A DNA stretch of 32,000 nucleotides from Candidatus Iainarchaeum sp. (GCA_043808785.1 JAZDEL010000003.1:51237-83236), one strand, 5' to 3'; shown: positions 18,503 through 31,866, counted from the stretch's first letter. Numbers and translations are program-made. The notes: generated by a model from the sequence alone, not told the origin.

Positions 18503-18689
18503 CTGATTTCCGCCTGTTAAATTCACGCAGCCCCGTGCGGGTGCGTGCAATCCACGCCTGCGCGCCTCCAGCGGGAAGCGCACACATGCACGAGCGCAGG
18601 CTTACGCCTTACGCACGCGCAAAGCGCGAGTATGGTACACAGGAAAGCCGATGCTTTCTGTTTTCGGGGGATTCCGAAAATCCAAATCC

Positions 18690-18950: not shown

Positions 18951-21125
18951 TTAATGCGTGTTGCCCGAGCCGCACGCCTTCGGTTCGCACTTATGTTTAG
19001 GCATTGAAACCCTTCTTCCCGAGGTTGCCCTGTAAACCATCCAGAGCATTGTGAGGATAAGCACAACAAGCCCGATATTGACCGCGTTCCCGTTCAGCAC
19101 GGCGAATGCCGTCCCCGCAAGCCCTGTGAAGCTGGTTCCGTTCCCCGAACCCGCACCGGAACCCGCGTTGCTGTTTTGGTTCCCGCTTCCCGAACCATTA
19201 TCGCCGTTGCCCGAACCCGAACCGTTATCCGAACCCGCGTTGCTGTTTTGGTTCCCGTTGCCGTAACCCGAACCGTTGTTGTTTTCGTTTTCATTCTCTT
19301 CCTCGGCAGGCCAGTAACCGTTCTCCCCTTCCACAACGCGCGTGTATTTTTCGATTATGGTTTCGCCGTTAACCTCTACCCTGTAAACAACAAACCCTGT
19401 TTCGCGCCCGAGGTTGCTTATCCTCACAACCTTTTCCGCGTAGGTTTGCCGTGGGATGTTGATGGTTTGGGGGAAAACATCAACACCCTCACCAGCAAGT
19501 GTAATTATGGCTGCGGAATCGAAAGGGTTGTCTATTTTCAGTTCAATGTAACCAATGCCGCCCCTTGAATTGTCTATCTCCGCCTGTTCGGGAAAATTAA
19601 AACCAAACCCTGCCGCGCTAAAGTTCGCGGCTGCGTTTGTTTTGTTATTTTTGCCCCCTTTCATGTAAACCTGCACAGCGTTGCTTTTTATTGCGCAGCT
19701 TATGCCCGAACTGAAATGCCCGTTTGCGGTTATGTAAATTGTTCCAGTGTCATCCGCCTTTGCCTCGTTTGCGTAAGTCCAGAACCCTGTGCGGGCGCGC
19801 TCGCCCTTGAGAACAACAGAATCCTTCACATATCCCGAAGCGGAGAACTCTGTTGCATATTCCTCAACCTGCACGGAATCAACATAAAAATTCAGCGCTG
19901 AATTATTTTTCAGGTAAATCTCCGCGTACGCGCTCTCCCCGGCATCGACGCTTACCCCCGCGCGGTTTTCGAAACCGAGTGAGTAGCAATTGCCTTTGGG
20001 AGTGTAGGTGCCGGTGCCGCTGCCTTTGCTCTGCGAAGCACCGGTGCTGTATTCGCCTGTACTCACACTCACATCCTTCCATGAATTATCGCCCGCGTTT
20101 TTGGGTTCGTATGAGGAAGCACTGTACGCGTACTCATAATCTCCGCTCTTCTCCGCAGGCTTATCCTTTGCCTTGCCGCTAACGTGTATCGTGAACTCCG
20201 CTGCCCTAATATCCCCGAGCGAGCAGTTTGTTCCGTCCGTGAACACGCCGCTTACCTTGACATTCGCGCTTATGTCCGCGCTCGACGCGGTGCCGATTGC
20301 CTCGAGCCTTACCTTGATTTCCCTCGTGCTTCCGCTCGGCACAAGTGAATCGTAATCCTTCCCTGTCTCGGTTACATCGAACCCTCCGATGTAAACCGAA
20401 ACGTTCTTTATCGTGAAATTCTTTTTTGAATTATTTTTCACATAAACGGTTGCGTAACCCTTCTCCCCTGCCGTTATGTAGAAATCATCCGCACTCAGCG
20501 CCATCTCGGTGCAGTAAGCGCCCTGCGGATACTTGTAATCGTACCCTGTATATTCCCCGTAACCGACACTGCGCCCCGAACCATATCCTCCGCCGTAACT
20601 TACAGTGTATGTGGGGCCGTAATATGCCGTCCCGCCGCTGTATGCTCCGCTGTAATACCCCCTGTCCGCAGGCCAGTAGTATGCGTTCCCGTAATACACA
20701 TACCCGTAATCGCCAACCCAGTTAGGGTAATAATTCCAGTTCCCGCCCCAGTAGTAATAATTTGGCGCGTAGTAGGGCGAGTAATAATATCCGTAACTCT
20801 CCCCGTACCAGTACCTCTGCCCGTAATAAACAGGCGTGTCCCTGTACCAGTACCTGTTCCCTCCGTAATACCAGCCCGGTTCGTAATTGTAATAATTGCC
20901 CGAGTAATAAACCCTGTAGGGTGTGTCAAAATAGTAATAATTTCCGTAGTGGTATGCGTAATACGGTTCCGAATACGCGCTCCAGTGCCCGCCCGAGAAT
21001 ACCTCTACAGACCAATCATTGTTGTAATATCCGAATGCCCATCCCGCGCTCACGCCTGTTGCAATGAAAAGCAGGGCCAGGCCTGCGAGCGCAATTTTGC
21101 AGAAAATCCCCCAATTGCGGTTCAT
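18951..21125 (-). CDS. Anchored surface protein
   Basis: Domain order: signal peptide, 173-aa Tyr/Gly/Asn-rich region, two Cys-bracketed beta-sandwich-like domains, NPxD domain, Gly/Ser/Asn linker, C-terminal TM anchor. First ATG at 21125 (the track start at 21146 is GTG and abuts the TATA box). MNRNWGIFCKIALAGLALLFIATGVSAG is the signal or anchor. The C-terminus is TGLAGTAFAVLNGNAVNIGLVVLILTMLWMVYR followed by a basic tail. I recognise no family by eye. Confidence 0.8.
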   Translation of the reverse strand: MNRNWGIFCKIALAGLALLFIATGVSAGWAFGYYNNDWSVEVFSGGHWSAYSEPYYAYHYGNYYYFDTPYRVYYSGNYYNYEPGWYYGGNRYWYRDTPVYYGQRYWYGESYGYYYSPYYAPNYYYWGGNWNYYPNWVGDYGYVYYGNAYYWPADRGYYSGAYSGGTAYYGPTYTVSYGGGYGSGRSVGYGEYTGYDYKYPQGAYCTEMALSADDFYITAGEKGYATVYVKNNSKKNFTIKNVSVYIGGFDVTETGKDYDSLVPSGSTREIKVRLEAIGTASSADISANVKVSGVFTDGTNCSLGDIRAAEFTIHVSGKAKDKPAEKSGDYEYAYSASSYEPKNAGDNSWKDVSVSTGEYSTGASQSKGSGTGTYTPKGNCYSLGFENRAGVSVDAGESAYAEIYLKNNSALNFYVDSVQVEEYATEFSASGYVKDSVVLKGERARTGFWTYANEAKADDTGTIYITANGHFSSGISCAIKSNAVQVYMKGGKNNKTNAAANFSAAGFGFNFPEQAEIDNSRGGIGYIELKIDNPFDSAAIITLAGEGVDVFPQTINIPRQTYAEKVVRISNLGRETGFVVYRVEVNGETIIEKYTRVVEGENGYWPAEEENENENNNGSGYGNGNQNSNAGSDNGSGSGNGDNGSGSGNQNSNAGSGAGSGNGTSFTGLAGTAFAVLNGNAVNIGLVVLILTMLWMVYRATSGRRVSMPKHKCEPKACGSGNTH

Positions 21126-21147
21126 ATAATAACTTCTGCCGAACACC

Positions 21148-21155
21148 TATTTAAA
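21148..21155 (-). promoter_or_regulatory. TATA box (TTTAAATA) of the Tyr-rich surface protein gene
   Basis: It is centred about 26 nt upstream of ATG 21125, which implies a leaderless transcript. Confidence 0.6.
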
Positions 21156-21184
21156 CCTTTCCTTTCTTCACGGTAATGAGTGAA

Positions 21185-21916
21185 TTAGCCCTTCATTTTG
21201 CCTTTTCCGCGCGTTATAACCAGCACAGCGGCGATTATGAACAGCACAAAAGGCGCGGGTATTTCAGGTGCATCGAGCGGGTTATGGGCGTCCGCTATTG
21301 TGAAATAGGTTGTGGCTTCGTTGTTCCAGGTTTGCGGGTCCTGTTCGACGCGGGCGGCTGATGCGCCTGTACAGCCACCAGTATGTTCAGCCTCCCTTAT
21401 TTCATCAATAAAAACCCTGAGCCTGTAGGTGCCTTCCCTGATTTTTATTTCGTTGTCTCCTGCAGATACTGCAGCGGGATTTAAGACCCTTATGCAAGGG
21501 CGGGGGATGCCGTTATTTTCAGGGAAACCCCTTTCTTCGCCAGTTTCGAAATATTCCTGCTTCATTTCCAATATTGTAAACCTTTCAGGCTGGAGGCCGG
21601 GCGGGGGCCCCCCCTCGCTGGCATGCGTTGCAGCATCTATGAGTTCCGCACTTATATCCGCGCATAAAGGCTTGCCTGACACATTTTTTATTTGCAGGTT
21701 TATATACATCCAGTCTCCGTAGAAAAAGATGCCGTCTTTATCCCCAAGCCCCCCGGTGCCGACACAATCAGGGAATGTGTCTCCATTGCCACCGCCGTCA
21801 CTAAGCTCGAACTCAGTTATCGCAAGCAGGTCGGGAGGGTTGACGGCTGTTGCTGCGGTGGCCAGTGCAGGCAACAGCAGCATGCACACAAAAGCCAAAC
21901 GCGGAAAATTGCCCAT
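21185..21916 (-). CDS. Small secreted protein with a C-terminal TM anchor (243 aa)
   Basis: ATG at 21916 gives MGNFPRLAFVCMLLLPALATAATA, a signal peptide. The C-terminus PEIPAPFVLFIIAAVLVITRGKGKMKG is a Pro-rich motif, then a TM, then a basic cluster. Function unknown. Confidence 0.7.
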   Translation of the reverse strand: MGNFPRLAFVCMLLLPALATAATAVNPPDLLAITEFELSDGGGNGDTFPDCVGTGGLGDKDGIFFYGDWMYINLQIKNVSGKPLCADISAELIDAATHASEGGPPPGLQPERFTILEMKQEYFETGEERGFPENNGIPRPCIRVLNPAAVSAGDNEIKIREGTYRLRVFIDEIREAEHTGGCTGASAARVEQDPQTWNNEATTYFTIADAHNPLDAPEIPAPFVLFIIAAVLVITRGKGKMKG

Positions 21917-21947
21917 GGCAAAACACCGCATGAATAAGGGCTCGGGA

Positions 21948-21955
21948 TTATTTAA
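21948..21955 (-). promoter_or_regulatory. TATA-like box (TTAAATAA) of the 243-aa anchored protein gene
   Basis: It is centred about 35 nt upstream of ATG 21916. The upstream ATG at 21931 would lie before the predicted transcription start. Confidence 0.4.
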
Positions 21956-22056
21956 GCCTTTTGTGCCTAAGGTGCGGCTGGTTTTTTGGGCTTTGTGGAG
22001 CGGCAGTGCCGCGCTTTGCGGGCTTATAAGCAGTTTGCAGCGCTGAAATTATTGCG

Positions 22057-25000
22057 CTACTTCCTCGCCTGGATGTAGAGAATCATCCCGACAAGGATTA
22101 TTATGATCACAACAAGCCCGAGCACAACCGCATTCTCGGATAGCATTGCAAGCCCGGTTGCTATGAAGTCCTGCTGTGCAGGCTCCTCAATCGTGAGCGT
22201 GAGCGCCCTCTCGAGGTGCTTTCCCCCACCCTCCACAATCATTTTCCCAGTGAACGTGCCAGTTCCCTTGGGCTTGACGCTTGCGGACAGCGAAACACTG
22301 TCTCCCGCGGCAATGGTCTTGGTGCCGCCCGTTATTTCCCAATCCTCGGGGAAACCTTCAAGCGAGAACTTAACCTCGACGCTGCCTGCAGACTCGTTTG
22401 TAACCGTAACCGCGACATTTCCGCTGTCGCCTATGCTCATGCTTGTGGGGAAACTGCCAACGCTTATTTCAGTGGCTTCCTCCTCGTTGCCCTCCCCAGC
22501 ACCCTGCCCGCTGTTGAATGTTATCTTGGTTGTCCTGTTGCCTATATTGCACCCTGAAATTTCCGTGCTGTAAATAACATATGCAACATCGCGGTCGGAA
22601 GTTATGTCAATGCTCTTCGTGGTTGTGCTGTTCCTCCCCACAGTGAAAGAATCCTGGCTTATTGTGAGCCCCGCCCCCGAAAGCGTTATCTCAGCTCCCT
22701 TATCCAGCGGGTTTGTCACAGTGAACTGTATTGTGCCCGAGTTTCCGCTGAACGCGACCTCGTTGGGTACGGTGAGCGTGAAATCCGTGCAATCGTTGCC
22801 TGTTCCGCTGCCGTTATCGCTGCCGCCGTTATCGTAGCGGTCCTTTACCTTAACGCCGAAGTCCTCGTAGAGGCCGCTGAAGTAGCAGTAATCCCCGTTG
22901 GAGAGCCTGCCGCTTACCTTGAGCCTTGCCTTCCCCGTGCTTGTCGAGGAAACGCCGCTTCCGAAGAACTTAACCCTTATCTCCTTCCTGTTTCCGCTGT
23001 AAATGTAATCCCCGCCGTAATCATCAACGCTCGGGTAAATATTCGCGCTGAAGGAGCCGTAGAGCTTCGCTATTTCAACATCACTTATCGTGAACCTGCT
23101 GCCAGAGTTGTTCCTCACATAGAAGCTTTCAATCGTGCTCCCGTCCTCGTAAACCTCGACTGTGTGAGTGTCAAGGTAAATGTTGTGGCAGTTCGCGCTT
23201 TCCGAGCTTGTGCCCGTGTTCATTACCTTTATGCTCGTGCTCTCGTAAATATCCCGGTAATTGCAGTATGCGTTGCCGCTGAAGTGCCCCCTTGCCCTGA
23301 GCGTGAGCGTGCCCCAGGTTGTCGAGGAAACGCTGTCCGCGTCTATTTCAACCTCGACCGTGATGTAATCGCCGTCATAGATTGTCCTGCCGGAATAATC
23401 CGAAGAATCCAAAACCCTTGCATCAAACTTAGAGCCGCTTGTTTCGTAGGCCTCAACGCCCTCAAGGTAGAATGTCCTGCCCGAGTTGTTCCCGAGGCGG
23501 TAAGTGAATGTGTCGGTTGTGCCTTCCTTGATTTCCTTTGTGCCCGTAACCCACTCTATCTGGTTGCACTCGCTGTTTGAATAATCATAATAATACTCAT
23601 CATTTACCGTGAGAGTGAAACTCTCCGTGCCTATGTCGCCGTAATTGCAGCCCTTTCCGCTTTCCGTGAAATAGCCCGCAACCCTGACGTTAACAGTCCC
23701 TGATTCTGTTCCGCTTACGTTGTAAGTGTCCACGTTTACGTTGAAATATCCCGTTTCCCCGGCGCCTATGTACGTGTCGTACCCGCCCGCCGTAGCGTTA
23801 AAGTACGGGTTGCTTTCCGTAACCTCAATCCCCCTGACCCCGAACCCTTCGCCGCTGTTGTTCTTTATATAGAACTGCAGGGTTTCGTTGTCCCTGCTTT
23901 CCTCAAGTGTCCTGCCCCCTACCTGAATATCTATGTTGCCGCACTGCGGGTAGTCAGGATAGCTGGCTGTGTCATAGACGGTAACATAAAAGTACTTTGC
24001 GGGGATGCTGCCCGTGCAGTTTCCGCTGACATTAACCTTTGCGCGGCCTTTGCTTGTGCCGCTTACGGAATCTCCGCTTACCGTGACGTCAAACGATTTT
24101 GTGCTGCCTGCCGGCACGCTAAGCGTGCTGCCGTAGCCGGAGACCGAGAAGCTGCCGTACTCCCTCGAAACGCTTATGCCGGCATTGAACGCCTTGCTGC
24201 CGCTGTTGGTTATGCTGAACGTGCGCGACTGCGTGCTGCCCTCGTTTATGTAAAAATCCTGAGTCGAGACGCTTATGTCCCCGCAGCCGAGGTATGCCGG
24301 AGGCGCGCCCTTGTCCTTGGCCGTAACGCTGAATTTCGCGTATCCTATGTCCCTGTAATCGCAGATTACTCCCGCGCCGTCGAAGCGGCCCTTAACCATG
24401 GCATAGCTGTGGATTATGGTCTCGTTGTCCACATTGCCCGCGGTAACGTAAAAATCAACCGTTGTGTATCCGCCGTTTGCCGCAACCCTCTTGTTTGCCG
24501 CTGTCTTGTTGGTAAAACTGAGCGGTATAGTGCTGTCGTAATCGTATGCGTACGCATCCTCAATTATGAAATCATAGCCGTTGTTGTTCCTGATGCCGAA
24601 GTACACAGTCCTGCTCGTGCCCTCGTCCATTGAAAAGTCCCCGGGCGTGAGGCTTATGTCCGAGCATTTGGGCGTTGCGGGCTTCTGCTGCCCCTGCGCG
24701 ACATTTGCCGTCAGTATCTTGTATTCGCTGCCGTAACTTACCTGGTTCGCAAACTTAAGGTATATAAAATCCGTGTAATACCCGAATTCCGAGCTTGCCG
24801 CACCGGGCAGGTCGATATTGAACTCCTGGCAACCGTTCACCTTAATGCTCGCGGAAGCCTCCCTGTAGCCGAAATCCTTTTTGGTTCCGTCGGGCCTTAC
24901 GCCGTAGCTCTGCAGTTTTCCGTAAACCGTTTCGTAAAGGTTAGGGGTGCTGCCGTCGGAATCGACGCATACCCTCATTTCAATCGCTGCATAATCGCCG

Positions 25001-25188
25001 TCGCGGAAGGTTACTATGCTGCCTTTCTCGCCCGTGCTCTTGTTCACGAATTTCGCGTCATCGAGCCTTATGCTCAGCCCGCTCGCGGCGTTGGCAATGC
25101 CTGTAAAAACCAGAAGCGCCAGCGCAATAATCCCGAATGCAAAGAGTTTGTTGTTCACGTTATCACTCACAAGTGGTAATATTTTCAC
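22057..25188 (-). CDS. Large anchored surface protein (1043 aa) with six Cys-starting tandem beta-sandwich-like repeats (five of the full NNSG type) plus a CARDB-like domain and a C-terminal TM anchor
   Basis: The hydrophobic signal is NNKLFAFGIIALALLVFTGIANA. Repeats start at C175, C302, C416, C541, C667 and C800. The C-terminus is ATGLAMLSENAVVLGLVVIIIILVGMILYIQARK. There is no ATG at the 5' end. Candidate starts are GTG 25188 (TATA-proximal), 25170 or 25158. Confidence 0.8.
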   Translation of the reverse strand: MKILPLVSDNVNNKLFAFGIIALALLVFTGIANAASGLSIRLDDAKFVNKSTGEKGSIVTFRDGDYAAIEMRVCVDSDGSTPNLYETVYGKLQSYGVRPDGTKKDFGYREASASIKVNGCQEFNIDLPGAASSEFGYYTDFIYLKFANQVSYGSEYKILTANVAQGQQKPATPKCSDISLTPGDFSMDEGTSRTVYFGIRNNNGYDFIIEDAYAYDYDSTIPLSFTNKTAANKRVAANGGYTTVDFYVTAGNVDNETIIHSYAMVKGRFDGAGVICDYRDIGYAKFSVTAKDKGAPPAYLGCGDISVSTQDFYINEGSTQSRTFSITNSGSKAFNAGISVSREYGSFSVSGYGSTLSVPAGSTKSFDVTVSGDSVSGTSKGRAKVNVSGNCTGSIPAKYFYVTVYDTASYPDYPQCGNIDIQVGGRTLEESRDNETLQFYIKNNSGEGFGVRGIEVTESNPYFNATAGGYDTYIGAGETGYFNVNVDTYNVSGTESGTVNVRVAGYFTESGKGCNYGDIGTESFTLTVNDEYYYDYSNSECNQIEWVTGTKEIKEGTTDTFTYRLGNNSGRTFYLEGVEAYETSGSKFDARVLDSSDYSGRTIYDGDYITVEVEIDADSVSSTTWGTLTLRARGHFSGNAYCNYRDIYESTSIKVMNTGTSSESANCHNIYLDTHTVEVYEDGSTIESFYVRNNSGSRFTISDVEIAKLYGSFSANIYPSVDDYGGDYIYSGNRKEIRVKFFGSGVSSTSTGKARLKVSGRLSNGDYCYFSGLYEDFGVKVKDRYDNGGSDNGSGTGNDCTDFTLTVPNEVAFSGNSGTIQFTVTNPLDKGAEITLSGAGLTISQDSFTVGRNSTTTKSIDITSDRDVAYVIYSTEISGCNIGNRTTKITFNSGQGAGEGNEEEATEISVGSFPTSMSIGDSGNVAVTVTNESAGSVEVKFSLEGFPEDWEITGGTKTIAAGDSVSLSASVKPKGTGTFTGKMIVEGGGKHLERALTLTIEEPAQQDFIATGLAMLSENAVVLGLVVIIIILVGMILYIQARK

Positions 25189-25212
25189 TATAACTAATTG
25201 CGCATCCTTTTC

Positions 25213-25220
25213 TTTATAAA
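25213..25220 (-). promoter_or_regulatory. TATA box (TTTATAAA, palindromic) of the 1043-aa surface protein gene
   Basis: It is centred about 28 nt upstream of GTG 25188. Confidence 0.55.
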
Positions 25221-25271
25221 CCTTTCGTTTTGTTGAGTGAAGGAGTTAATTCGTCAAGTGACGGGGTTAAT

Positions 25272-25284
25272 GCGCGTTTGCGCC
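25272..25284. repeat. GC mini-hairpin motif gcgcgtttgcgcc, third exact copy
   Basis: The same 13-mer occurs at 8083-8095 and 13128-13140. Here it lies in the 3' UTR of the DUF457-like gene and is followed by a second ttgcgcc. Related hairpins are cgcgcaaagcgcg at 18616-18628 and roughly 22007-22018 (ccgcgctttgcgg). Confidence 0.75.
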
Positions 25285-25316
25285 ATTGCGCCACGCCATT
25301 GCCCCCGCCAATAATA

Positions 25317-25814
25317 CTATTGTGAGCAGTATGGTTGATTTTTCCGTATCCGCGAAATGTAGGCAAAAACAGCAATGACAAAGCAGATGCTGCAAAAAAG
25401 GTAAATCGCAAGCGGCGAAATTGCGCCATAGAATGGGTTGATTTCCAGAGGGTAAAATGGCTGCATATCAGGATAGAGCGGCGCATCCAGCAGAACATGG
25501 AGGTAAACGCCGAGTAGCGCAGAGGCGCACACCTTCAGCACCGAGGATTCCTGCCCAAGCCTGAAAAACGCCATTATTTGCCTGATTGGTTTCCTCAGCG
25601 CATACATAACCAAGCCCAGGGTCAGCCCCACAACCGTTGCACCTAGGAACGAATGAAAAAATCCGTGCAGAATGAAAGAGCCAGACATCAGGTTGAGAAG
25701 AGGCTCAATGTCAAGAATCACACCTGCAACCAAAAAAGCGGGTAAATCAATAAGCGAAAACAGCAACAGCCCGAACAGCAGGGAGGGGCCGAGGTGGAAG
25801 GGCGTGAGCGGCAT
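25317..25814 (-). CDS. Polytopic membrane protein, DUF457/YdjM-like putative metal-dependent hydrolase
   Basis: 165 aa with about 5 TM segments. Motifs are MPLTPFHLGP at the N-terminus, HGFFHSFLG mid-protein and YLHVLLDAP. These resemble the His/Asp motifs of the YdjM (PF04307-type) family. The assignment is from memory of motifs only. Confidence 0.55.
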   Translation of the reverse strand: MPLTPFHLGPSLLFGLLLFSLIDLPAFLVAGVILDIEPLLNLMSGSFILHGFFHSFLGATVVGLTLGLVMYALRKPIRQIMAFFRLGQESSVLKVCASALLGVYLHVLLDAPLYPDMQPFYPLEINPFYGAISPLAIYLFCSICFVIAVFAYISRIRKNQPYCSQ

Positions 25815-25825
25815 GGCGCACCCGT

Positions 25826-26587
25826 TCAGCTAAGCTCCGATATCAAATTTACTTCAGCAACTTTTGTGGCACCTTGGAACACATCTTTTTTTACCGTTAT
25901 TCTTTTTTCATAATCAATCCAAAAAACTTCTTTTTTAGTGGTTGTGCCATTTTCTATTATTTTATACTCTACTTTGAATGCTTTTCTCCCATTTATTAGA
26001 GGCGTTTCGACAACCTCAAAACGATCTTTATAATAGAACTCTTTGTCGCCAATCTTTGATTCTATAGGCCTCTCCATCTCAAAGTGGTCAGTTAATGAAA
26101 GCATCCACTGCCCAAAGAGAATACTCCCAATCTGCAAGTCAATATCGGCACTTCCACTGCCTTCTGTTATTGTTTTGCCACCCTGTATTCTTTTCAGGAA
26201 ATAGCCAGTTTCAGTATCAAAGTAATATGTTGCCTGACGGCCCTCCGTCCTGGCATCGCCAGTTGGCGTTGTGTATTTAGCCTTGTAGTCCTCAGAGATG
26301 ACATAATACTTCTTGCCCCTTATGCGCTCCATATCTTTAACGACAAACACTCTTGTTCCAGCCCCGCCCCAGCCAGGCATGGTTTCTTTGTATTCAAACT
26401 TATCACCTACTTTAAAAGAAGGCGACACATTCCCGTTTGGCGGCAAAACCTTAGTTGTTTCGAACTTAACTCCATTGCCACCTGATGGCGCATAATTTTC
26501 CACGTCTGCGCATCCGCTGATAAGTAACATTAAAGCTAAGAGAAAGCCTGCCAAGGTAGATTTCCCAGAAAGCATAGGACAACCCAT
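25826..26587 (-). CDS. Putative lipoprotein (253 aa), low-GC gene
   Basis: The N-terminus MGCPMLSGKSTLAGFLLALMLLISGCADVEN contains a lipobox-like ISGC. The rest has beta-rich composition. Hand-sampled GC is about 33-42 percent, against about 58 percent in the r-protein region. No family recognised. Confidence 0.7.
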   Translation of the reverse strand: MGCPMLSGKSTLAGFLLALMLLISGCADVENYAPSGGNGVKFETTKVLPPNGNVSPSFKVGDKFEYKETMPGWGGAGTRVFVVKDMERIRGKKYYVISEDYKAKYTTPTGDARTEGRQATYYFDTETGYFLKRIQGGKTITEGSGSADIDLQIGSILFGQWMLSLTDHFEMERPIESKIGDKEFYYKDRFEVVETPLINGRKAFKVEYKIIENGTTTKKEVFWIDYEKRITVKKDVFQGATKVAEVNLISELS

Positions 26588-26611
26588 ACATATTACGAAA
26601 AAAATTTAATA

Positions 26612-29600
26612 TTAACAGTCAGATAAGTGCCACTGTGCGACATTTATGGGCCAGTAGCCTTTGCCTATCATGTAATCTGTTGGCTCACTGTCTGGTTCTG
26701 GCCCTTCGGTGTCTATCGAACCGTCTGCCGAGGTATACCATCCTTGCCAGCGATACCCTTTTTCTATTGGTTTGCCAAAATCGCTCCCATAGTGTGGCAT
26801 GTAGGAATACTCAAATGGAACGACATGGTAACCTTTATTCTCAAAATATGCTTCCGCTTGCGAGAGAGTTGAAAATGTCTTTGTATTATCTACCGAACTG
26901 TCTTTGTTTTCGCACCCCCACAGCCCGGCATAATAGCACAGGCCGATGCACGGGTTTGGCATATCGGGGCCTACGCCGCCATTATCGCCGCCTGTAGGTT
27001 CGACATAAAGCTTTGCTGTTGCGCTTTCCGATTTTGAACCGCTTGTCACATTCAGATAAACCGTTATGTTTCTCTGGCTTGAACTATCGTTAGTGCATGT
27101 GACACGATATTCATCGCCATAGTCGTTAGTTTCGCAGTCGCTATATGCGGAGAGGCTCCAGCCGTAGTCATACTGCCCAGATCCACCATATGCATACGCA
27201 GTAAATGTCTGGCTCTCGCCCGACCAAACAATAGCGCTTTCCGGCTCTATTGAAACGCTCAAATCCTGCCCGCTATTGCCTGGCTCGACATAAAGCTTTG
27301 CGCTTGCACTTCCCGATTTTGAGCCGCTTGTAACATTCAGGTAAATTGTCCTGTTCATTGTGCTTGAGCTTTCATTTGTGCACGTGACACGGAACTCACG
27401 GTCGTAGTCGTCTTTTTGGCAGTTATCATACGAGGACAGGCGCCAGTCATAGGAGTATCCGCCGTCGCCACCTGAAACATTCGCATAGAACTTTTGCTCT
27501 TCGCCCGATTCGACTGTGGCGCTCCCGGGCTCAATCGAAACATCTAATTCACCTGTGCTCCCGCCCTCAATCGTAAAAGTGCCGCTTTCGGCTGAAGAAC
27601 ACTGCCCGTCATCGTCGCAAACGAATGCATAATAGTTCTTAGTTCCAGAGTCGCCCGAAGAAGTTCCATAATCGCAATAACTTGGGCTGTAGCTTGAATA
27701 GCCGTCTGCGCTGCACCACGTGCCGCCCGAGCAGCCGCCGCTATCGTGGGAACTGGTTTTGCATATAAACATTTTTGTCCTGTCGTTGCCAGGCAGCGAT
27801 GCATTGATATCCTGCGCAACTTGTGCAACAGGCGCAGCAACCGCCCCGACAAACTCGCGTACAAGCGGCAGTCCTATAACCACATTCCCTATTGCCTGCA
27901 CTACGTTGCCTGCGGGGGCGGGCTGAACTGCCGAATATTCAGGGTCGGACCAGTGAACCTCGAAGTTCACGGAATCGCCGGGCTCGACAGGGTTTGGGTA
28001 AACATTGACATATTCAATATAAGGCTCGTTGTTACCGCCGCCCTCGTTTTGTACATACACCGTGAACTGCCTCTCACCGATATCGCCGTATGAGCAGTAC
28101 TTTCCGCCATCGAAGCGCCCGCTCACTTTCACATACGCCGTTCCGCTCTCGTCACGATCGACAGAGTATGCCTCAACCCTAACCTCATAATTGCCGCTTC
28201 CATGTGAATTTATGCTCCCGTCATAGGAGCCTGTTCCGTTCGCTCCAAAGTAATTTCCGCCGCTTACCACTCCAACATCCACATTCTCGACATAAAACCT
28301 CTCGCCCGAATTGTTCCCGTAACTGAACTGGCGGTATTTTGTTTCGCCCTCGTTCAAGGTTACGTCATCAGCATTTATGTAAATGTCACCGCATCGCGGC
28401 TCTCCGGTGGAATTGCCGTCAACATAAATAGCCCTTGTTGTCTGGTCAGTCAGGCCGCCGCTGTCCATTACCGAGAGCCTTATTGTTTTGTTGCCGCCTG
28501 TGGAATAATAGTGTGCTTCGGCCTTATATTGCACATATTCAGTGTCCCAATAGCCATCGTCCTCCCAATCCCACCTTACTTGAAGTTGGTCGGCTGTATC
28601 TTCCGCATCATAAGAATTATTGGCATAAACCTCAAATCTCGTGCTTGTGTTTCCGGATGTCGGGTTAACGTCGAAAACCGCGTGAGGCTGCGTGTTTCCG
28701 CCGCTCCCGCCGGCAGCCACATATATTTTTGAAGTGTCTCTTGCAGTTCTCATGGGACCTTCAATCTCAGTTAGCCTGAATGTAATATCTAAAGCTAACT
28801 GATTTGAGGTCGGGTTGGTGCAAGTGAGGGTACAGCCTCTCAAGTCCGTGCAGAATTCAGCAGTGCAATAGTCATATGGCATAGTCCAATGTGGGGCGGC
28901 AAAAACCCCATCTATGGTTCCGGAAACTACGGCAAAAAAGTCCTGGCTCCCGCCAGATTCAATAAAAGTCTCTTCGGGGAAAAGCTGGACTGTTAATTCG
29001 CCGCTACCGCCCTGAACATTGATGCTTGCATCATCTATTGAGTAAAAATCTAATGTCCCTTGTTTTGCAACTCCTGCTGCAAAAACATACTGCCCGTTGG
29101 TGATTGGCGGGTGGTTGCTTGGGATCTCAAAAATCATGCCCACCGTGCCTTCGTCGTAAGGGGGAATGTACAAATTTGCAGGCAGAGTTGTGCGGATGTA
29201 CTGGGGCGTATTTGTCCAACTAGGGTAGAAATAGAGGTCTTGCTCTGGCGAAAGCATTACTAGATAAAAATCAACTGGCCTCTCAGCTTCTGGATTTGTG
29301 AGTCCTATAAAGAGTCCAATCAATTCGTTTTGTTTATATGTGCCGCTATTTGTTGTAACTGTTACTGTCGGTCCCGCACGGGCAGGCAATTTCCGCATGT
29401 CCTTAAGCGTTATTGTTTTGTTGCTTGTCTTTACCTCGCCAGATAGCAAGTTATATGTGGTTTGCCCGCTGGCGGTCTTGGTCGTGGGTGGCATTACGGT
29501 TTCGATGTCCCGTGTAATTGCCCTTACAGTTCCTCCATCAGCCATCGGCGTGTATATCGCCACCGCACCTGTTCCTGTGATGTTCGTTGTAGCCTTGTTA

Positions 29601-29860
29601 TCTTTTACGGGTTCGGGCACTTTTATCGGCTCATAAATTTTACTGGGGGCATTCACTTCCACAACCGCAGCCTTTGCAACCGCCGGTTGCGCCACCAATG
29701 CGCGGGGCTCGCTGTCGGCCACTGCCGGGACCTTATGCAGTGTTAGCTGCAGTGCGCCTGGTGCGGCGACAGCAAAAGAGAATGCCAGAAATGAAAGCAA
29801 AAAAAGTACGGAAAAAAGCGGCAATAAATGCCTCTTTCCTGCAGGCAAGGAAGCGCGCAT
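26612..29860 (-). CDS. Large secreted multidomain protein (1082 aa) with no C-terminal TM
   Basis: Domain order: signal peptide, unknown N-terminal region, Ig-like domain, PKD-like domain, one Cys-bracketed domain, Cys-rich module, two tandem Ig-like repeats, unknown C-terminal domain. The signal is MRASLPAGKRHLLPLFSVLFLLSFLAFSFAVAAPGA. The PKD-like segment is AVFDVNPTSGNTSTRFEVYANNSYDAEDTADQLQVRWDWEDDGYWDT...IRLSVMDSGG. The Cys-bracketed domain spans C490 to C589. Confidence 0.8.
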   Translation of the reverse strand: MRASLPAGKRHLLPLFSVLFLLSFLAFSFAVAAPGALQLTLHKVPAVADSEPRALVAQPAVAKAAVVEVNAPSKIYEPIKVPEPVKDNKATTNITGTGAVAIYTPMADGGTVRAITRDIETVMPPTTKTASGQTTYNLLSGEVKTSNKTITLKDMRKLPARAGPTVTVTTNSGTYKQNELIGLFIGLTNPEAERPVDFYLVMLSPEQDLYFYPSWTNTPQYIRTTLPANLYIPPYDEGTVGMIFEIPSNHPPITNGQYVFAAGVAKQGTLDFYSIDDASINVQGGSGELTVQLFPEETFIESGGSQDFFAVVSGTIDGVFAAPHWTMPYDYCTAEFCTDLRGCTLTCTNPTSNQLALDITFRLTEIEGPMRTARDTSKIYVAAGGSGGNTQPHAVFDVNPTSGNTSTRFEVYANNSYDAEDTADQLQVRWDWEDDGYWDTEYVQYKAEAHYYSTGGNKTIRLSVMDSGGLTDQTTRAIYVDGNSTGEPRCGDIYINADDVTLNEGETKYRQFSYGNNSGERFYVENVDVGVVSGGNYFGANGTGSYDGSINSHGSGNYEVRVEAYSVDRDESGTAYVKVSGRFDGGKYCSYGDIGERQFTVYVQNEGGGNNEPYIEYVNVYPNPVEPGDSVNFEVHWSDPEYSAVQPAPAGNVVQAIGNVVIGLPLVREFVGAVAAPVAQVAQDINASLPGNDRTKMFICKTSSHDSGGCSGGTWCSADGYSSYSPSYCDYGTSSGDSGTKNYYAFVCDDDGQCSSAESGTFTIEGGSTGELDVSIEPGSATVESGEEQKFYANVSGGDGGYSYDWRLSSYDNCQKDDYDREFRVTCTNESSSTMNRTIYLNVTSGSKSGSASAKLYVEPGNSGQDLSVSIEPESAIVWSGESQTFTAYAYGGSGQYDYGWSLSAYSDCETNDYGDEYRVTCTNDSSSQRNITVYLNVTSGSKSESATAKLYVEPTGGDNGGVGPDMPNPCIGLCYYAGLWGCENKDSSVDNTKTFSTLSQAEAYFENKGYHVVPFEYSYMPHYGSDFGKPIEKGYRWQGWYTSADGSIDTEGPEPDSEPTDYMIGKGYWPINVAQWHLSDC
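26993..27553 (-). repeat. Tandem duplication (2 x 285 nt) encoding two Ig-like domains
   Basis: aa 770-861 and aa 865-956 of the 1082-aa protein align at roughly 60 percent identity (LxVSIEPxSAxVxSGExQxF...YRVTCTNxSSS...YLNVTSGSKSxSAxAKLYVEP). Long near-identical DNA runs occur around 27000 and 27288. Confidence 0.85.
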
Positions 29861-29943: not shown

Positions 29944-31374
29944 TCACCCCTTCACAACCCCCAGCGGCACATGCCTGCTTACCTTTTTGCCGATGCCGCT
30001 GAGCACAACGGATTCAACAACCTCGTCAATATCCTTGTACGCGCTGCTCGCCTCCTCGGCAAGCCCTTCCCATGAAGCCGAGCGGATAACCTCTCCCTTC
30101 GCCTCTAATTCACGTTTCACATCCTGCCCTTTCCTGCGCCTTATCGCCTCATTCCTTGACATTACCCTCCCCGCGCCGTGCGCAACGCTGCCGAAGGTTT
30201 CCTCCAGCCCTTTCTCCGTTCCGACACAAACATATGACGCCCTTCCCATGTCGCCGGGAATTAGGGCGGGATGTCCAGTCTTGGCGTAAGCGCGAGGGTT
30301 CTCTGCCCTACCCTCAGGCATTGCCCTTGTTGCCCCCTTGCGGTGCACGAGCAGTTTCATTTTTTTGCCGTTAACGTTGTGCTCCTCCTCCTTCGCAACG
30401 TTGTGGCAGATATCGTAAAGCAAATCCATCCCCAGCGCCTCGGCATCCTTGCCGAACGCGGTGCTGAACACTTCCCTTACCCAGTGCATTATAACCTGCC
30501 TGTTGCAGAACGCGTAATTCACAGCGCACTTCATTGCCGCCAAATAATCCTGCCCCTCTTTGCTCGTAATGGGCGCGCAGCACAACTGCCTGTCGGGCAC
30601 CTGAATTTTATATTTGTCCATCGCCCCGAGCATTGTGTCCAGATAATCCGAAGCGACCTGGTGCCCGAACCCGCGGGAGCCGCAGTGAACCATGACCGTT
30701 ATCTGCCCCTTCTCAAGCCCGAACGCCTTTGCCGTTTCCGCATCGAAAATCTCATCAACGCGCTGAATTTCCAGAAAATGGTTCCCGCTGCCGAGGGTTC
30801 CGAACTGCGGCATGCCGCGCTGCATCGCCTTTTGCGAAACCTTCGATGCGTCAGCGCCCTTCATGCACCCGTTCTCCTCCGTATGCTCCAGGTCCTTTTC
30901 CCAGCCGTAGCCCTTCCTAATCACCCATTTCGAGCCCTGCTCCAGCGCCGAGGAAAGTTCCGCATTGCTTAGCCTGAACTTGCTTTTTCCCCCAAGGCCT
31001 GCGGGTACGGAATTGAACATTCCGTCAACAAGTTCGTGCATTTTCGGTTTTACATCTTTTTCGGTGAGGTTGGTTTTTATCAGGCGGATTCCGCAATTTA
31101 TGTCAAAACCAATTCCTCCAGGGCTGACAACGCCGCTTTCGTAATCGATTCCCGCAACTCCGCCTATGCAAAATCCGTAGCCCCAATGCAGGTCGGGGAG
31201 GCCTATTGCATGCTTCTGAATGCCCGGCAAATAAGCGGTATTAGTCAACTGCTGCAATGCCCCTTGCTCAATATTGTCGCGCAACTTTTCAGTAGCGTAA
31301 ACCCGCGCAGGAACGCGCATCCCCGCTTCCTGCGGAATTTCCCACACCGCATCGGATATTTTTTTGAAGTTCAT
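29944..31374 (-). CDS. rtcB: RNA-splicing ligase RtcB (3'-phosphate/5'-OH RNA ligase), intein-free
   Basis: 476 aa. Motifs are PDLHWGYGFCIGG, GIGFDINCG, GSGNHFLE, HCGSRGFGHQ and AHGAGR. Confidence 0.95.
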   Translation of the reverse strand: MNFKKISDAVWEIPQEAGMRVPARVYATEKLRDNIEQGALQQLTNTAYLPGIQKHAIGLPDLHWGYGFCIGGVAGIDYESGVVSPGGIGFDINCGIRLIKTNLTEKDVKPKMHELVDGMFNSVPAGLGGKSKFRLSNAELSSALEQGSKWVIRKGYGWEKDLEHTEENGCMKGADASKVSQKAMQRGMPQFGTLGSGNHFLEIQRVDEIFDAETAKAFGLEKGQITVMVHCGSRGFGHQVASDYLDTMLGAMDKYKIQVPDRQLCCAPITSKEGQDYLAAMKCAVNYAFCNRQVIMHWVREVFSTAFGKDAEALGMDLLYDICHNVAKEEEHNVNGKKMKLLVHRKGATRAMPEGRAENPRAYAKTGHPALIPGDMGRASYVCVGTEKGLEETFGSVAHGAGRVMSRNEAIRRRKGQDVKRELEAKGEVIRSASWEGLAEEASSAYKDIDEVVESVVLSGIGKKVSRHVPLGVVKG

Positions 31375-31413
31375 TTTCCCGCCCTGTTCCGCGCCAAATT
31401 TCGCCCGCGCGGT

Positions 31414-31866
31414 TCAGATATCAACAAGCACCTGCGCAACCCAGAGCGCGCCTTTCTTCTCAACCATGAACCTGTTCCACGTAACCGCCTTGATTTCCTT
31501 TTTCAGCAGGTGCCTTTCCGCGTCAATCTTCTCCCCGCGCAGTTCCGCCTCCATCATGAGCATGCCTGTCTTGAAATCCTTCCTCAGCGAGTTCACGCCG
31601 AAAAAGGAATAAAGCTTCTCCCTCGCGGTTATGCGGAACAAAATTTCCTCCAAAAACTTGTGCACAAGTTCCTCGAGGTCCTTTGCAGTAATGCTCACTG
31701 CCTCCCTCTCTGACGCCTTGACGCGCGAAAGGTCGTACATCACGTTCGCCATCGCCTCGGCGGAGTTGCTTATCATTTCCCTGTCGGTACGGCCGAAAGC
31801 GAGGAAAAGCGCGTCAGCGGTGTGCTCCAGATAGCGGTATTTTTCAAAGGTTTTTTTCGCCTGCAT
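31414..31866 (-). CDS. Archease (RtcB activator)
   Basis: 150 aa: YRYLEHTADALFLAFG...AVTWNRFMVEKKGALWVAQVLVDI. This shows the archease EHTAD motif and C-terminal pattern. It lies directly upstream of rtcB. Confidence 0.88.
   Translation of the reverse strand: MQAKKTFEKYRYLEHTADALFLAFGRTDREMISNSAEAMANVMYDLSRVKASEREAVSITAKDLEELVHKFLEEILFRITAREKLYSFFGVNSLRKDFKTGMLMMEAELRGEKIDAERHLLKKEIKAVTWNRFMVEKKGALWVAQVLVDI

What the first reader, a model, noticed from the sequence alone, without database searches (positions are those of the whole stretch)
18951..29860. Cluster of three large surface proteins sharing a repeated Cys-bracketed ~100-115-aa domain with an invariant NNS sequon
Eight copies of one domain occur across three genes:
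- In the 1043-aa protein they start at C175, C302 (divergent), C416, C541 and C667.
- In the Tyr-rich protein they start at C212 and C387 (ORF-track numbering).
- In the 1082-aa protein one spans C490 to C589.

The hand-derived consensus is C-x-[DN]-I-x(5-8)-[FV]-x2-[ED]-G-x(5-7)-[FY]-x-[VIL]-x-N-N-S-[GKA]-x2-F ... [VL]-[KR]-V-[SA]-G-x-F-x(3-5)-C-x-Y-x-D-I-x(5)-F-x-V-x-V.

The two Cys are 89-101 residues apart (96-101 in seven of the eight copies), which is consistent with an intradomain disulfide. The NNS motif is an N-glycosylation sequon at a fixed position. The domain looks CARDB/Ig-like, but I cannot assign it to a named family.

A second shared domain, containing NP[LF]D...ITL.G.G, precedes the anchors of two of the proteins.

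All six genes in the block are secreted or membrane proteins. In a genome-reduced archaeon this would be a plausible cell-cell or host-attachment module.
Basis: partly seen in the sequence, partly recalled or inferred. Interest (0 to 1): 0.7.

Follow-up and report, generated by a model that had tools for sequence, protein, structure and literature searches.

The report
Disulfide-stapled Ig-domain envelope proteins, Iainarchaeota
Three neighbouring genes of a tiny groundwater archaeon encode cell-surface proteins built from an unnamed, disulfide-stapled Ig-like domain, and relatives of these genes sit just upstream of the main ribosomal-protein operon across this lineage, which suggests a core cell-coat protein, not an optional adhesin.

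Summary
Eight homologous ~120-aa Cys-bracketed domains occur in three minus-strand genes (leave-one-out HMM E 1e-16 to 1e-33). NNS is present in only 6 of the 8.

- **Source.** The window comes from a Candidatus Diapherotrites (Iainarchaeota) MAG.
- **Family.** No Pfam, NCBIfam or PDB-sequence model reaches threshold on the domain. It defines about 350 cluster representatives among 1.84 billion proteins.
- **Conserved features.** Across 313 copies the two Cys are kept or lost together. The Asn is present in 312 of 313, but N-x-S/T in only 73%.
- **Fold.** An AlphaFold model (pLDDT 96.7) is an Ig-like sandwich. The core is a remote homologue of DUF1573/HYDIN/ASH domains (hhalign 91.6%), and the Asn aligns with their N-x-G motif.
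- **Architecture.** Typical members have a signal peptide, a variable tip domain, 2-5 stapled Ig domains, 1-2 unstapled Ig domains and a C-terminal membrane anchor.
- **New finding.** In 11 of the 14 other loci with usable upstream sequence (10 distinct organisms), a member lies co-oriented upstream of rpl3, directly in all but one organism. L3 itself is only 36-57% identical among most of these loci.

Best reading: a lineage-specific core envelope or coat protein, possibly the S-layer. That function is inferred, not shown.

The parts
22057..25188 (-). p1043: signal peptide, private N-terminal domain (aa 35-168), five Cys-bracketed Ig domains, two further Ig-like domains, C-terminal TM anchor
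   Evidence: It is identical to MFH1224798.1. CAI is 0.74, like the ribosomal genes.
24304..24684 (-). p1043 Cys-Ig copy 1 (aa 169-295; C175/C276; NNN, no sequon)
23962..24303 (-). p1043 Cys-Ig copy 2 (aa 296-409; C302/C391; TNSG, no sequon; the shortest copy)
23590..23961 (-). p1043 Cys-Ig copy 3 (aa 410-533; C416/C514; NNS)
23209..23586 (-). p1043 Cys-Ig copy 4 (aa 535-660; C541/C642; NNS)
22831..23208 (-). p1043 Cys-Ig copy 5 (aa 661-786; C667/C768; NNS)
22522..22776 (-). p1043 'second shared domain' (aa 805-889), an unstapled Ig-like domain of the same superfamily
22213..22455 (-). p1043 last Ig-like domain (aa 912-992), HYDIN/VesB-like and choice-of-anchor-D-like, just below threshold
   Evidence: Pfam PF22544 scores 25.2 bits against a cut-off of 25.5. 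NCBIfam NF012200 gives E 6.4e-8.
22069..22155 (-). p1043 C-terminal anchor: TGLAMLSENAVVLGLVV motif, TM helix and basic end
18951..21146 (-). Y731: signal peptide, Tyr-rich N-terminal domain, two Cys-Ig domains, shared Ig-like domain, N/G/S-rich linker, TM anchor, basic tail. The real start is probably M8 (ATG at 21125).
20532..21044 (-). Y731 Tyr-rich domain (aa 35-205), conserved in about 30 family representatives
   Evidence: Alignment A5 has invariant R48, G61, W62, Y95 and P111. The AF2 model is low confidence, pLDDT 59.9. Foldseek finds no PDB match.
20169..20531 (-). Y731 Cys-Ig copy 1 (aa 206-326; C212/C308; NNS)
19650..20006 (-). Y731 Cys-Ig copy 2 (aa 381-499; C387/C484; NNS)
19335..19598 (-). 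Y731 'second shared domain' (aa 517-604)
19026..19091 (-). Y731 TM anchor, preceded by FTGLAGTAFAVLNGNAVNIGLVV
26612..29860 (-). p1082: signal peptide, mosaic secreted protein with one Cys-Ig copy, a near-threshold PKD domain, three copies of a different ~100-aa repeat and a Cys-rich stretch; no TM anchor
   Evidence: It equals P0059 at 99.9% identity.
28040..28408 (-). p1082 Cys-Ig copy (aa 485-607; C490/C589; NNS). This is the sequence that was modelled.
21185..21931 (-). p248: small signal-peptide plus C-terminal-TM protein between p1043 and Y731. A partner gene is conserved at the same place in L089.
25317..25814 (-). p165: polytopic YdjM-like membrane protein, probably not part of the old unit
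   Evidence: Pfam PF04307 scores 30.6 bits against a cut-off of 29. CAI is 0.55.
25826..26587 (-). p253: lipobox-like (LISGC) secreted protein with GC 0.41, probably a later insertion
   Evidence: No homologue in any fetched locus.
25213..25225 (-). BRE/TATA-like motif AAAGGTTTATAAA, 25 nt before the p1043 start codon
   Evidence: 5 matches against 0.47 expected by chance
21148..21160 (-). BRE/TATA-like motif AAAGGTTTAAATA, 23 nt before the ATG of Y731 M8
17354..18505 (-). rpl3, first gene of the ribosomal-protein cluster and the conserved downstream neighbour of the family
   Evidence: Pfam Ribosomal_L3 E 3.3e-69. Synteny.
29944..31866 (-). RtcB and archease, the frequent upstream boundary of the slot
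   Evidence: RtcB is upstream in L001/L002, L003, L004 and L006, together with archease in the last three.

Best explanation
**What the genes encode.** p1043 and Y731 are type-I membrane-anchored proteins. p1082 is a secreted, mosaic relative. They are cell-envelope proteins of an Iainarchaeota (Diapherotrites) archaeon.

**Domain.** Their bodies are chains of a lineage-specific Ig-like beta-sandwich domain. It is a remote branch of the DUF1573/HYDIN/ASH ('PapD-like') Ig superfamily. Each domain is stapled by one disulfide between the segment just before strand A and the loop before the last strand.

**Proposed arrangement.** The chain of 2-5 stapled domains plus 1-2 unstapled Ig domains stands on a conserved C-terminal anchor (T-G-L/F ... 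N ... G, then a TM helix and a basic end). It holds a variable N-terminal tip domain away from the membrane. In Y731 that tip is a conserved Tyr-rich domain. In p1043 it is a domain shared only with its nearest orthologue.

**Proposed role.** A member of this family is kept upstream of rpl3 and co-oriented with it across genomes whose L3 proteins are mostly only 36-57% identical. I therefore read the family as a core, probably abundant, coat or S-layer-like protein of this lineage. In this genome the slot is expanded to two anchored paralogues plus an accessory secreted one.

**Shown:** repeat homology, fold class, paired Cys, architecture, phyletic range, synteny.

**Inferred:** that the disulfide forms, high abundance, any coat or lattice role, glycosylation.
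For: **Repeats**
- Eight homologous copies in the window.

**Family**
- 352 representatives with E<=1e-3 among 1.84e9 proteins.
- Across 313 copies: C7 99%, N33 about 100% (312/313), F39 94%, G95 98%, C103 97%. Cys are present as a pair or lost as a pair, never truly single.

**Fold**
- AF2 model with pLDDT 96.7 and pTM 0.86, all-beta.
- Foldseek matches VesB/VesC Ig, HYDIN and CEP192 ASH domains, PapD-like chaperones and siglec-adhesin domains, with probability 1.0 and TM 0.45-0.6.

**Superfamily link**
- DUF1573 is the most frequent sub-threshold Pfam hit, in 11 of 77 copies.
- The family profile retrieves a 10x DUF1573 protein, with the Asn aligned to its FTIRNxG motif.
- hhalign gives 91.6% probability, E 8e-7.

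**Architecture**
- Of 150 representatives, 128 have an N-terminal hydrophobic segment, 123 have a C-terminal TM, and copy number is 2-5 in 144.
- The unstapled Ig domain follows the last stapled copy in 78 to 143 of 150, depending on profile iteration.
- A loose anchor-motif regex matches 80 of 125 C-termini against 2.2% of control windows.

**Synteny**
- A member lies upstream of rpl3 on the same strand in L001/2, L003, L004, L005, L006, L008, L089, L009, L011, L090 and L091 (L091 may be the L006 organism). Gaps are 242-820 nt, and 2269 nt in L001/2, where two genes intervene.
- L3 identity among the family-selected loci is 36-57%. Against the L3-selected Iainarchaeum loci, two pairs (L005-L011 and L006-L009) reach 69%.
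- About 150 rpl3 loci from other archaeal and bacterial lineages carry no copy.

**Expression proxies**
- CAI against the window's ribosomal genes is 0.74 for p1043 and 0.65 for Y731, compared with 0.65-0.77 for the six ribosomal reference genes listed.
- The same RAAGGTTTAWAWA motif precedes rpl3, Y731, p248 and p1043.

**Other**
- Acidic pI of 4.4-5.2.
- No S-layer protein is reported for Iainarchaeota in the S-layer survey read here.
Against: - There are no expression, proteomic or imaging data, so abundance and lattice formation are pure inference.
- CAI rests on a 32-kb sample. The window's other non-ribosomal genes score in the same range (RtcB 0.68, archease 0.73, the 481-aa ORF at 3138-4583 0.73), so this is weak evidence.
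- The one characterised S-layer protein from the nearest studied lineage, Micrarchaeum harzensis, is of the PF05123 type. No such domain is present here.
- Synteny can persist by descent alone next to a very stable operon.
- Candidatus Iainarchaeum andersonii has no member in the 1.7 kb upstream of rpl3.
- One member, P0030 in L007, sits in a different surface-protein cluster.
- Many S-layer proteins lack Cys.
- Sequons are barely enriched over composition: 15 observed against 12.4 expected, 11 against 8.7, and 16 against 9.7.
- The Cys-Cys distance in the model could not be measured, because no coordinates were available.
Confidence: 0.45

Rival explanations
1. Host or cell-cell adhesins. The Ig chain is a stalk. 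The variable N-terminal tip (Tyr-rich in Y731, private in p1043) binds a partner cell or a polysaccharide. The three paralogues give different specificities.
For: - Tip domains are the most variable part. The p1043 N-domain is found only in its nearest orthologue.
- Several N-domain types occur across the family.
- Foldseek matches include siglec-like adhesin domains.
- The host is a DPANN archaeon, a group described as predominantly obligate ectosymbionts in the abstracts returned.
- The slot is expanded to three paralogues here.
Against: - Accessory adhesins are usually patchy and mobile. This family keeps one genomic position across deep divergence.
- No binding domain of known specificity was found.
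- This reading does not exclude the coat reading, because coat proteins can also mediate attachment.
Confidence: 0.25
2. Ordinary lineage-specific surface proteins with no special structural role. The position next to rpl3 is inherited gene order without selection.
For: - Tandem Ig-like surface proteins are common.
- The fold matches are generic.
- Exceptions to the synteny exist in L007 and L010.
- The expression proxies are weak.
Against: - The other neighbours of the slot change between loci. RtcB is present in some, while an AAA/DUF4143 gene, a methyltransferase, a ferredoxin or a DGR region appear in others. The family gene stays upstream of rpl3 throughout.
- L3 divergence among these loci (36-57% in most pairs) is about the same as their distance to Methanobacteria L3, 39-47%.
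Confidence: 0.2
3. The conserved Asn is a fixed N-glycosylation site on every domain, and the family is defined by this glycan.
For: - S or T stands at +2 in 73% of 313 copies, far above background. Column 33 carries 229 sequons and the next best column carries 58.
- The Asn ends strand B at a turn.
Against: - The Asn is present in 312 of 313 copies, while 27% of copies have no sequon. This includes 2 of the 8 in the window.
- The same Asn is conserved in the DUF1573-type repeats of P0149, where +2 is Gly and no sequon exists.
- An Asn-x-Ser/Thr turn can be structural on its own.
Confidence: 0.3

Closest known systems
DUF1573 (PF07610), HYDIN/VesB/CFA65-like Ig (PF22544) and ASH (PF15780) domains. 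From memory these belong to the PapD-like Ig clan; clan membership was not checked here.
   Same: - Ig-like beta-sandwich fold.
- Shared core from strand B to strand E with the pattern F-x-I-x-N-x-x-x-x-x-[LF]-x-[IV]-x-x-V, and the same conserved Asn.
- Structural matches to HYDIN, CEP192 ASH, VesB/VesC and PapD-like chaperones.
- Used as tandem arrays in surface proteins.
   Different: - No copy reaches any Pfam cut-off. The best DUF1573 E-value is 0.005, and 17-22 bits per whole protein against a cut-off of 26.1.
- The match covers only about 65 of 120 columns.
- This family adds an N-terminal and a C-terminal segment joined by a conserved Cys pair.
- It has S/T instead of Gly two residues after the Asn.
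- It was found only in Iainarchaeota-like archaea.
   Same: Ig-like sandwich with an N-x-G-like motif after strand B. Common in archaeal surface proteins.
   Different: Only 2 of 77 copies give even a weak CARDB hit (best E 0.037). This is less than for DUF1573.
Archaeal S-layer glycoproteins built of Ig-like domains with a C-terminal anchor, such as Haloferax volcanii csg (from memory), and the Ig-like class in the S-layer survey
   Same: Signal peptide, acidic, large, tandem Ig-like domains, C-terminal hydrophobic anchor with a conserved motif before it, N-x-S/T sites.
   Different: - No sequence similarity to any known S-layer family.
- No PGF-CTERM or other known sorting-signal model hit.
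- Has conserved disulfides.
- Lattice formation and abundance are untested.
Micrarchaeum harzensis S-layer protein SLP_Mh (Micr_00292)
   Same: Envelope protein of a related DPANN phylum, about 100 kDa, acidic, glycosylated.
   Different: SLP_Mh carries S-layer domain PF05123 and related domains. The window proteins have none of these.

Membership tests
Pfam DUF1573 (PF07610) | Score at or above the curated gathering cut-off (26.1 bits) | tested here: not met
   11 of 77 single copies give sub-threshold hits, best E 0.005. Whole family proteins score 17-22 bits. The window proteins show no DUF1573 hit at E<=1.
Pfam DUF1573 (PF07610) | Homology of the domain core (profile-profile) | tested here: met
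   hhalign of A2 against the DUF1573 repeats of P0149 gives probability 91.6%, E 8e-7, over 65 columns. The family HMM aligns to 10 DUF1573 repeats with the Asn in register. Caveat: P0149 was itself picked out by the family profile.
Pfam CARDB (PF07705), DUF11 and PKD | Score at or above the curated cut-off on the Cys-bracketed repeat | tested here: not met
   CARDB hits 2 of 77 copies, best E 0.037. PKD_4 hits only p1082 aa 389-475, outside the repeat, at 26.0 bits against a cut-off of 27.
Ig-like beta-sandwich of PapD-like/ASH type (fold level) | Beta-sandwich topology with significant structural matches to members | tested here: met
   AF2 model with pLDDT 96.7 and eight strands. Foldseek probability 1.0 and TM 0.43-0.60 to HYDIN, CEP192 ASH, VesB/VesC and FaeE/FimC.
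Intradomain disulfide | The two Cys co-vary and lie within bonding distance | tested here: inconclusive
   Co-variation is met: 304 copies have both, 4 have neither and none has a true single Cys. Distance was not measurable because no model coordinates were available. The Cys positions (before strand A, and in the loop before the last strand) are compatible with a bond.
N-glycosylation site at the conserved Asn | N-x-S/T conserved together with the Asn, and glycan attached | tested here: inconclusive
   The Asn is present in 312 of 313 copies and the sequon in 229 of 313. In the window it is 6 of 8. Glycan attachment cannot be tested with these tools.
Archaeal S-layer protein (functional class) | Secreted, large, multi-domain, anchored to the membrane | tested here: met
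   Hydropathy shows signal-like N-termini and C-terminal TM in p1043 and Y731, and in 106 of 150 relatives.
Archaeal S-layer protein (functional class) | Homology to a known S-layer family (PF05123/PF05124, Methanosarcina tile protein and others) | tested here: not met
   No such hits in Pfam, NCBIfam or PDB sequences.
Archaeal S-layer protein (functional class) | Among the most abundant proteins, and forms a 2D lattice | not testable with these tools
   Only proxies are available: p1043 CAI of 0.74 is like the ribosomal genes, and it shares a promoter-like motif with the rpl3 upstream region.
Archaeosortase substrates (PGF-CTERM and relatives) | Match to a known C-terminal sorting-signal model | tested here: not met
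   No NCBIfam hit at E<=1. A different conserved motif, T-[GA]-[LF]-x-x-[LF]-[GA]...N...G, precedes the TM helix.

The most novel reading that the evidence does not exclude
This family is the so far unidentified S-layer or cell-coat protein of the phylum Iainarchaeota. It would be a disulfide-stapled Ig-domain protein whose gene has been held upstream of the rpl3 ribosomal operon since before the known lineages split. It would carry a lineage-specific C-terminal sorting and anchor signal and, in one subfamily, an outward-facing Tyr-rich domain of a fold not seen in the PDB.
Probability: 0.3. Interest if true: 0.6.

Novelty: new variant of a known kind. Interest (0 to 1): 0.45.

Why it matters
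- **A gap in what is known.** I found no described envelope protein for Iainarchaeota (Diapherotrites), a DPANN phylum. The S-layer survey read here lists candidates for several other DPANN phyla but none for this one.
- **A concrete candidate.** A conserved, easily located gene (the one upstream of rpl3) with a confident domain model gives a target for metaproteomics, antibodies, cryo-ET interpretation and glycoproteomics.
- **A new profile.** It would turn several hundred 'hypothetical proteins' into a recognisable family.
- **Limit.** At the level of fold and general design this is a familiar kind of protein, a tandem Ig-like surface protein.

Tried and rejected
- **Word-indexed homologue search.** The search for homologous proteins with the 8-copy alignment and then the 77-copy alignment returned nothing, although the exhaustive search found 352 relatives. 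The tool seems blind to this family, so the third search was not spent.
- **Locating the window's own contig.** The look-up of encoding contigs for the window's p1043 and RtcB gave no record.
- **Scanning genomes with the domain.** I used an L3 alignment instead and scanned the flanks with the domain HMM.
- **PDB by sequence.** Only chance-level hits, E>=0.17.
- **Viral structure library.** Only generic Ig matches.
- **Tyr-rich domain.** The AF2 model is poor (pLDDT 59.9) and its Foldseek search found nothing with E<1, so there is no fold assignment.
- **DGR targeting.** A diversity-generating retroelement lies near the member in L008, but its variable repeat lies in another gene. Rejected as an explanation.
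- **Recent duplication or assembly artefact.** DNA-level repeats among the Cys-Ig copies are short (46-49 nt) and 61-74% identical, so these duplications are old. The longer DNA repeats lie in p1082's other repeat (171 nt, 75%) and in the Y731 linker (66 nt, 77%).
- **Structured RNA.** Rfam finds nothing in the window.
- **Partners of p253 and p165.** No homologues in any fetched locus.

Full report
**1. What is in the window**

Region 18951-29860 holds six ORFs, all on the minus strand:
- p1082 (26612-29860)
- p253 (25826-26587)
- p165 (25317-25814)
- p1043 (22057-25188)
- p248 (21185-21931)
- Y731 (18951-21146)

Upstream lie archease and RtcB. Downstream lie rpl3, rpl4, rpl2 and the rest of the ribosomal-protein cluster. 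p1043 is identical to MFH1224798.1, a 'hypothetical protein' of a Candidatus Diapherotrites MAG. The 'genome-reduced archaeon' guess is therefore right.

**2. Check of the observation**

- Cys positions and spacings are exactly as reported.
- The eight segments align at 19-27% identity to the first copy.
- Each is recovered by an HMM built from the other seven, with E between 2.9e-16 and 1.7e-33.
- A six-frame scan of the whole window finds these eight and nothing else.
- The 'invariant NNS' is wrong for two copies: RNNNG in copy 1 and TNSGS in copy 2 of p1043.
- The second shared domain is real: 29% identity over 76 aa, E 3e-9.
- By hydropathy, five proteins have signal-like N-termini. p1043, Y731 and p248 have C-terminal TM helices. 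p165 is polytopic and YdjM-like. p253 has a lipobox-like LISGC. p1082 has no anchor.

**3. The domain family**

No Pfam, NCBIfam or PDB-sequence model reaches threshold on the repeat.

An exhaustive profile search of 1.84 billion cluster representatives finds 352 proteins at E<=1e-3 and 107 at E<=1e-30. From the best 150 I extracted 313 near-full copies. Their conservation is:

| Position | Conservation |
|---|---|
| Cys 7 | 99% |
| Asn 33 | 312 of 313 |
| Phe 39 | 94% |
| Gly 95 | 98% |
| Cys 103 | 97% |

The two Cys are both present in 304 copies and both absent in 4. The 5 apparent singles simply have the second Cys displaced by one or two alignment columns. This is the pattern expected of a disulfide pair.

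N-x-S/T at the Asn occurs in 229 of 313 copies, or 73%.

**4. Fold and nearest relatives**

An AlphaFold2 model of the p1082 copy, built with a 77-sequence alignment, has pLDDT 96.7 and pTM 0.86. It is an eight-stranded all-beta domain. The first Cys lies just before strand A and the second lies in the loop before the last strand. The Asn ends strand B.

Foldseek against the PDB gives many matches with probability 1.0 but TM of only 0.43-0.60. They include the Ig linker of a sialidase, VesB/VesC Ig domains, HYDIN and CEP192 ASH domains, PapD-like chaperones, MSP and siglec-adhesin domains. The viral library gives only generic Ig hits.

Three sequence results point the same way:
- DUF1573 is the commonest sub-threshold Pfam hit, in 11 of 77 copies.
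- The family profile retrieves P0149, a protein with ten DUF1573/HYDIN repeats (Pfam E 4.5e-84). The alignments put the family's Asn on the Asn of the FTIRNxG motif of those repeats.
- hhalign of the family against those repeats gives 91.6% probability, E 8e-7, over 65 columns.

The domain is therefore a divergent, unnamed branch of the DUF1573/HYDIN/ASH Ig superfamily, not CARDB. The Asn looks like an inherited fold feature. What is specific to this family is the Cys staple and S/T in place of Gly at +2.

**5. Protein architecture**

- Of the 150 best relatives, 128 have an N-terminal hydrophobic segment and 123 have a C-terminal TM helix. Copy number is 2-5 in 144 of them.
- The 'second shared domain' follows the last stapled copy in 78 of 150 on the first profile pass and 143 after three iterations. 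It also cross-matches the first half of the stapled domain, so it is an unstapled relative.
- In p1043 another Ig-like domain, HYDIN-like at 25.2 bits against a cut-off of 25.5, follows it.
- The C-terminal anchors share a motif: T/A/S-G/A-L/F-x-x-L/F-G/A ... N/T-A ... G, then the helix and basic residues. A loose regex matches 80 of 125 C-termini against 2.2% of control windows.
- N-terminal tip domains vary. The p1043 tip is shared only with its nearest orthologue.
- Y731 belongs to a subfamily of about 30 representatives whose tip is a conserved domain with 15-36% Tyr. Its AF2 model is only moderately confident in a ~90-residue beta core, and it has no PDB match.

**6. Genomic context, the main new result**

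*Loci chosen through the family protein.* Seven of eight have the gene upstream of rpl3 and co-oriented with it:
- P0002 (L001/L002)
- P0005 (L003)
- P0004 (L004)
- P0076 (L005)
- P0025 (L006)
- P0118 (L008)
- P0046 (L089)

The exception is P0030 (L007), which lies in another surface-protein cluster.

*Loci chosen without reference to the family.* I scanned genome and metagenome collections with an L3 alignment and then ran the domain HMM over the 10-kb flanks.
- Four of the five loci with L3 at least 44% identical to the window's carry a member directly upstream of rpl3: L009, L011, L090 and L091 (L091 may be the L006 organism).
- The fifth, Ca. Iainarchaeum andersonii (L010), has only 1.7 kb of upstream sequence, and it holds other genes.
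- None of the remaining loci, about 150 from other archaeal and bacterial lineages, has a copy. A few of these have too little upstream sequence to be informative.

*Depth of conservation.*
- Gaps to rpl3 are 242-820 nt, and 2269 nt in L001/L002, where two genes intervene.
- L3 identity among the family-selected loci is 36-57%. Against the L3-selected Iainarchaeum loci, two pairs (L005-L011 and L006-L009) reach 69%.
- These values are about the same as the distance to Methanobacteria L3, 39-47%.
- The position has therefore been kept across very deep divergence, while the genes further upstream change.

*The window compared with relatives.*
- L089 repeats the window's order: p1043 orthologue (48% identity), p248 homologue, Y731 orthologue (48%), then rpl3.
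- Most other loci have one family gene in the slot. The window has three, plus three unrelated membrane or secreted genes.

**7. Two layers inside the block**

| Gene | CAI against the window's ribosomal genes |
|---|---|
| p1043 | 0.74 |
| Y731 | 0.65 |
| p248 | 0.56 |
| p165 | 0.55 |
| p1082 | 0.55 |
| p253 | 0.49 |
| six ribosomal reference genes | 0.65-0.77 |

- p253 has GC of only 0.41, and the GC profile dips at 25-29 kb.
- RtcB, archease and the 481-aa ORF at 3138-4583 also score 0.68-0.73, so the CAI contrast is only a weak proxy for expression.
- A BRE/TATA-like motif, RAAGGTTTAWAWA, occurs five times in the window against 0.47 expected. Four of the five are on the minus strand: upstream of rpl3, and 18-25 nt before the start codons of Y731 (counting from M8), p248 and p1043.
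- By inference, p1043-p248-Y731 are the old, individually promoted and probably leaderless unit. p1082-p253-p165 look like later additions.

**8. Interpretation**

*Shown:* a real, unnamed, lineage-restricted Ig-like domain family with a paired-Cys signature. It builds signal-peptide and TM-anchored proteins, and its gene is positionally conserved upstream of rpl3.

*Inferred:*
- The Cys pair forms a disulfide.
- The Ig chain is a stalk or lattice body that presents a variable tip.
- The family is a core, abundant envelope or coat protein, a possible S-layer.

I give the coat reading about 0.45. The adhesin reading gets 0.25; it is not exclusive, since the variable tips fit it. The 'ordinary surface protein with inherited synteny' reading gets 0.2. 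Whether the Asn is glycosylated is open. Its conservation is explained by fold homology, but the 73% S/T at +2 still leaves room for a glycan.

**9. Comparison with what is known, and novelty**

- At the level of design (signal peptide, tandem Ig-like domains, C-terminal anchor) this resembles known archaeal surface and S-layer glycoproteins.
- At family level it fails every curated threshold tested and has no counterpart among solved structures by sequence.
- The characterised Micrarchaeum S-layer protein is of a different type, PF05123.
- The S-layer survey lists no Iainarchaeota candidate.
- Searches of the held literature found no description of this family.

I rate it a new variant of a known kind, with interest 0.45. 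The interest comes mainly from the conserved position and the lack of any known envelope protein in this phylum.

Noticed in passing
window 20532-21044 (Y731 aa 35-205): A conserved domain with 15-36% Tyr across about 30 relatives (consensus FDYPYRxYYxGxYYYYxPGWY; R48, G61 and W62 invariant). It is not mere low complexity. The AF2 core is a run of short beta hairpins at pLDDT 75-86, the rest is disordered, and there is no PDB match.
   Followed up: partly
window 18783-18795, 21148-21160, 21949-21961, 25213-25225 (minus strand): A shared BRE/TATA-like motif, RAAGGTTTAWAWA, lies upstream of rpl3, Y731, p248 and p1043 (5 matches against 0.47 expected). It is absent upstream of p1082, p253 and p165. 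The 40 nt upstream of Y731 and p1043 are 70% alike.
   Followed up: partly
window 21125-21146: The GTG start used for Y731 lies 1 nt after the TATA-like motif. The real start is more likely the ATG of M8 at 21125, 23 nt after the motif (a leaderless transcript), giving 724 aa.
   Followed up: no
window 25300-29900: GC and GC3 drop here: p253 has GC 0.41 and GC3 0.40, and p1082 has GC3 0.51. Together with low CAI, this suggests that p1082-p253-p165 were added to the slot later or came from elsewhere.
   Followed up: partly
window 26981-27565 and 28706-29029 (p1082 aa 766-960 and 278-385): p1082 holds three copies of a second, different ~100-aa repeat with its own Cys pair (...C...VTCTN...). Copies B and C are 61% identical, and the DNA is 75% identical over 171 nt (26997-27167 and 27282-27452). 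There is also a Cys-rich stretch at aa 700-754, and the protein ends in Cys.
   Followed up: partly
window 22069-22180 and 19026-19130; C-termini of 125 relatives: A conserved motif precedes the TM helix: T/A/S-G/A-L/F-x-x-L/F-G/A ... N/T-A ... G. A loose regex matches 80 of 125 C-termini against 2.2% of control windows. It could be a lineage-specific sorting or anchoring signal. No known CTERM model matches.
   Followed up: partly
window 19131-19313: The N/G/S-rich linker of Y731 is encoded by an imperfect 72-nt tandem duplication (19144-19209 and 19216-19281, 77% identical).
   Followed up: no
window 18506-18583: The longest rpl3 ORF starts at a GTG 26 codons before the ATG that aligns with other L3 proteins. 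The extension is probably not translated. A T-run follows the Y731 stop at about 18885-18890.
   Followed up: no
L008 1-2600: A diversity-generating retroelement (bAvd, reverse transcriptase, template repeat 1224-1345) lies 3.5 kb upstream of the family member. Its variable repeat (147-268, 84% identical) is in a different, truncated gene.
   Followed up: yes
L001 801-3743 and L002 163-3105: RtcB in this relative is 980 aa long and carries an intein (Intein_splicing between two RtcB halves).
   Followed up: no
L090 7364-9694: The family gene upstream of rpl3 is split into two adjacent ORFs (7364-8149 and 8153-9694). This is either a stop or frameshift in the assembly or a pseudogene.
   Followed up: no
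L089 4905-5156; L003 12329-12466; L004 12031-12204: Small ORFs (83, 45 and 57 aa; the 83-aa one is Cys-rich with a signal peptide) sit between the family gene and rpl3 in relatives. No counterpart is evident in the window.
   Followed up: no
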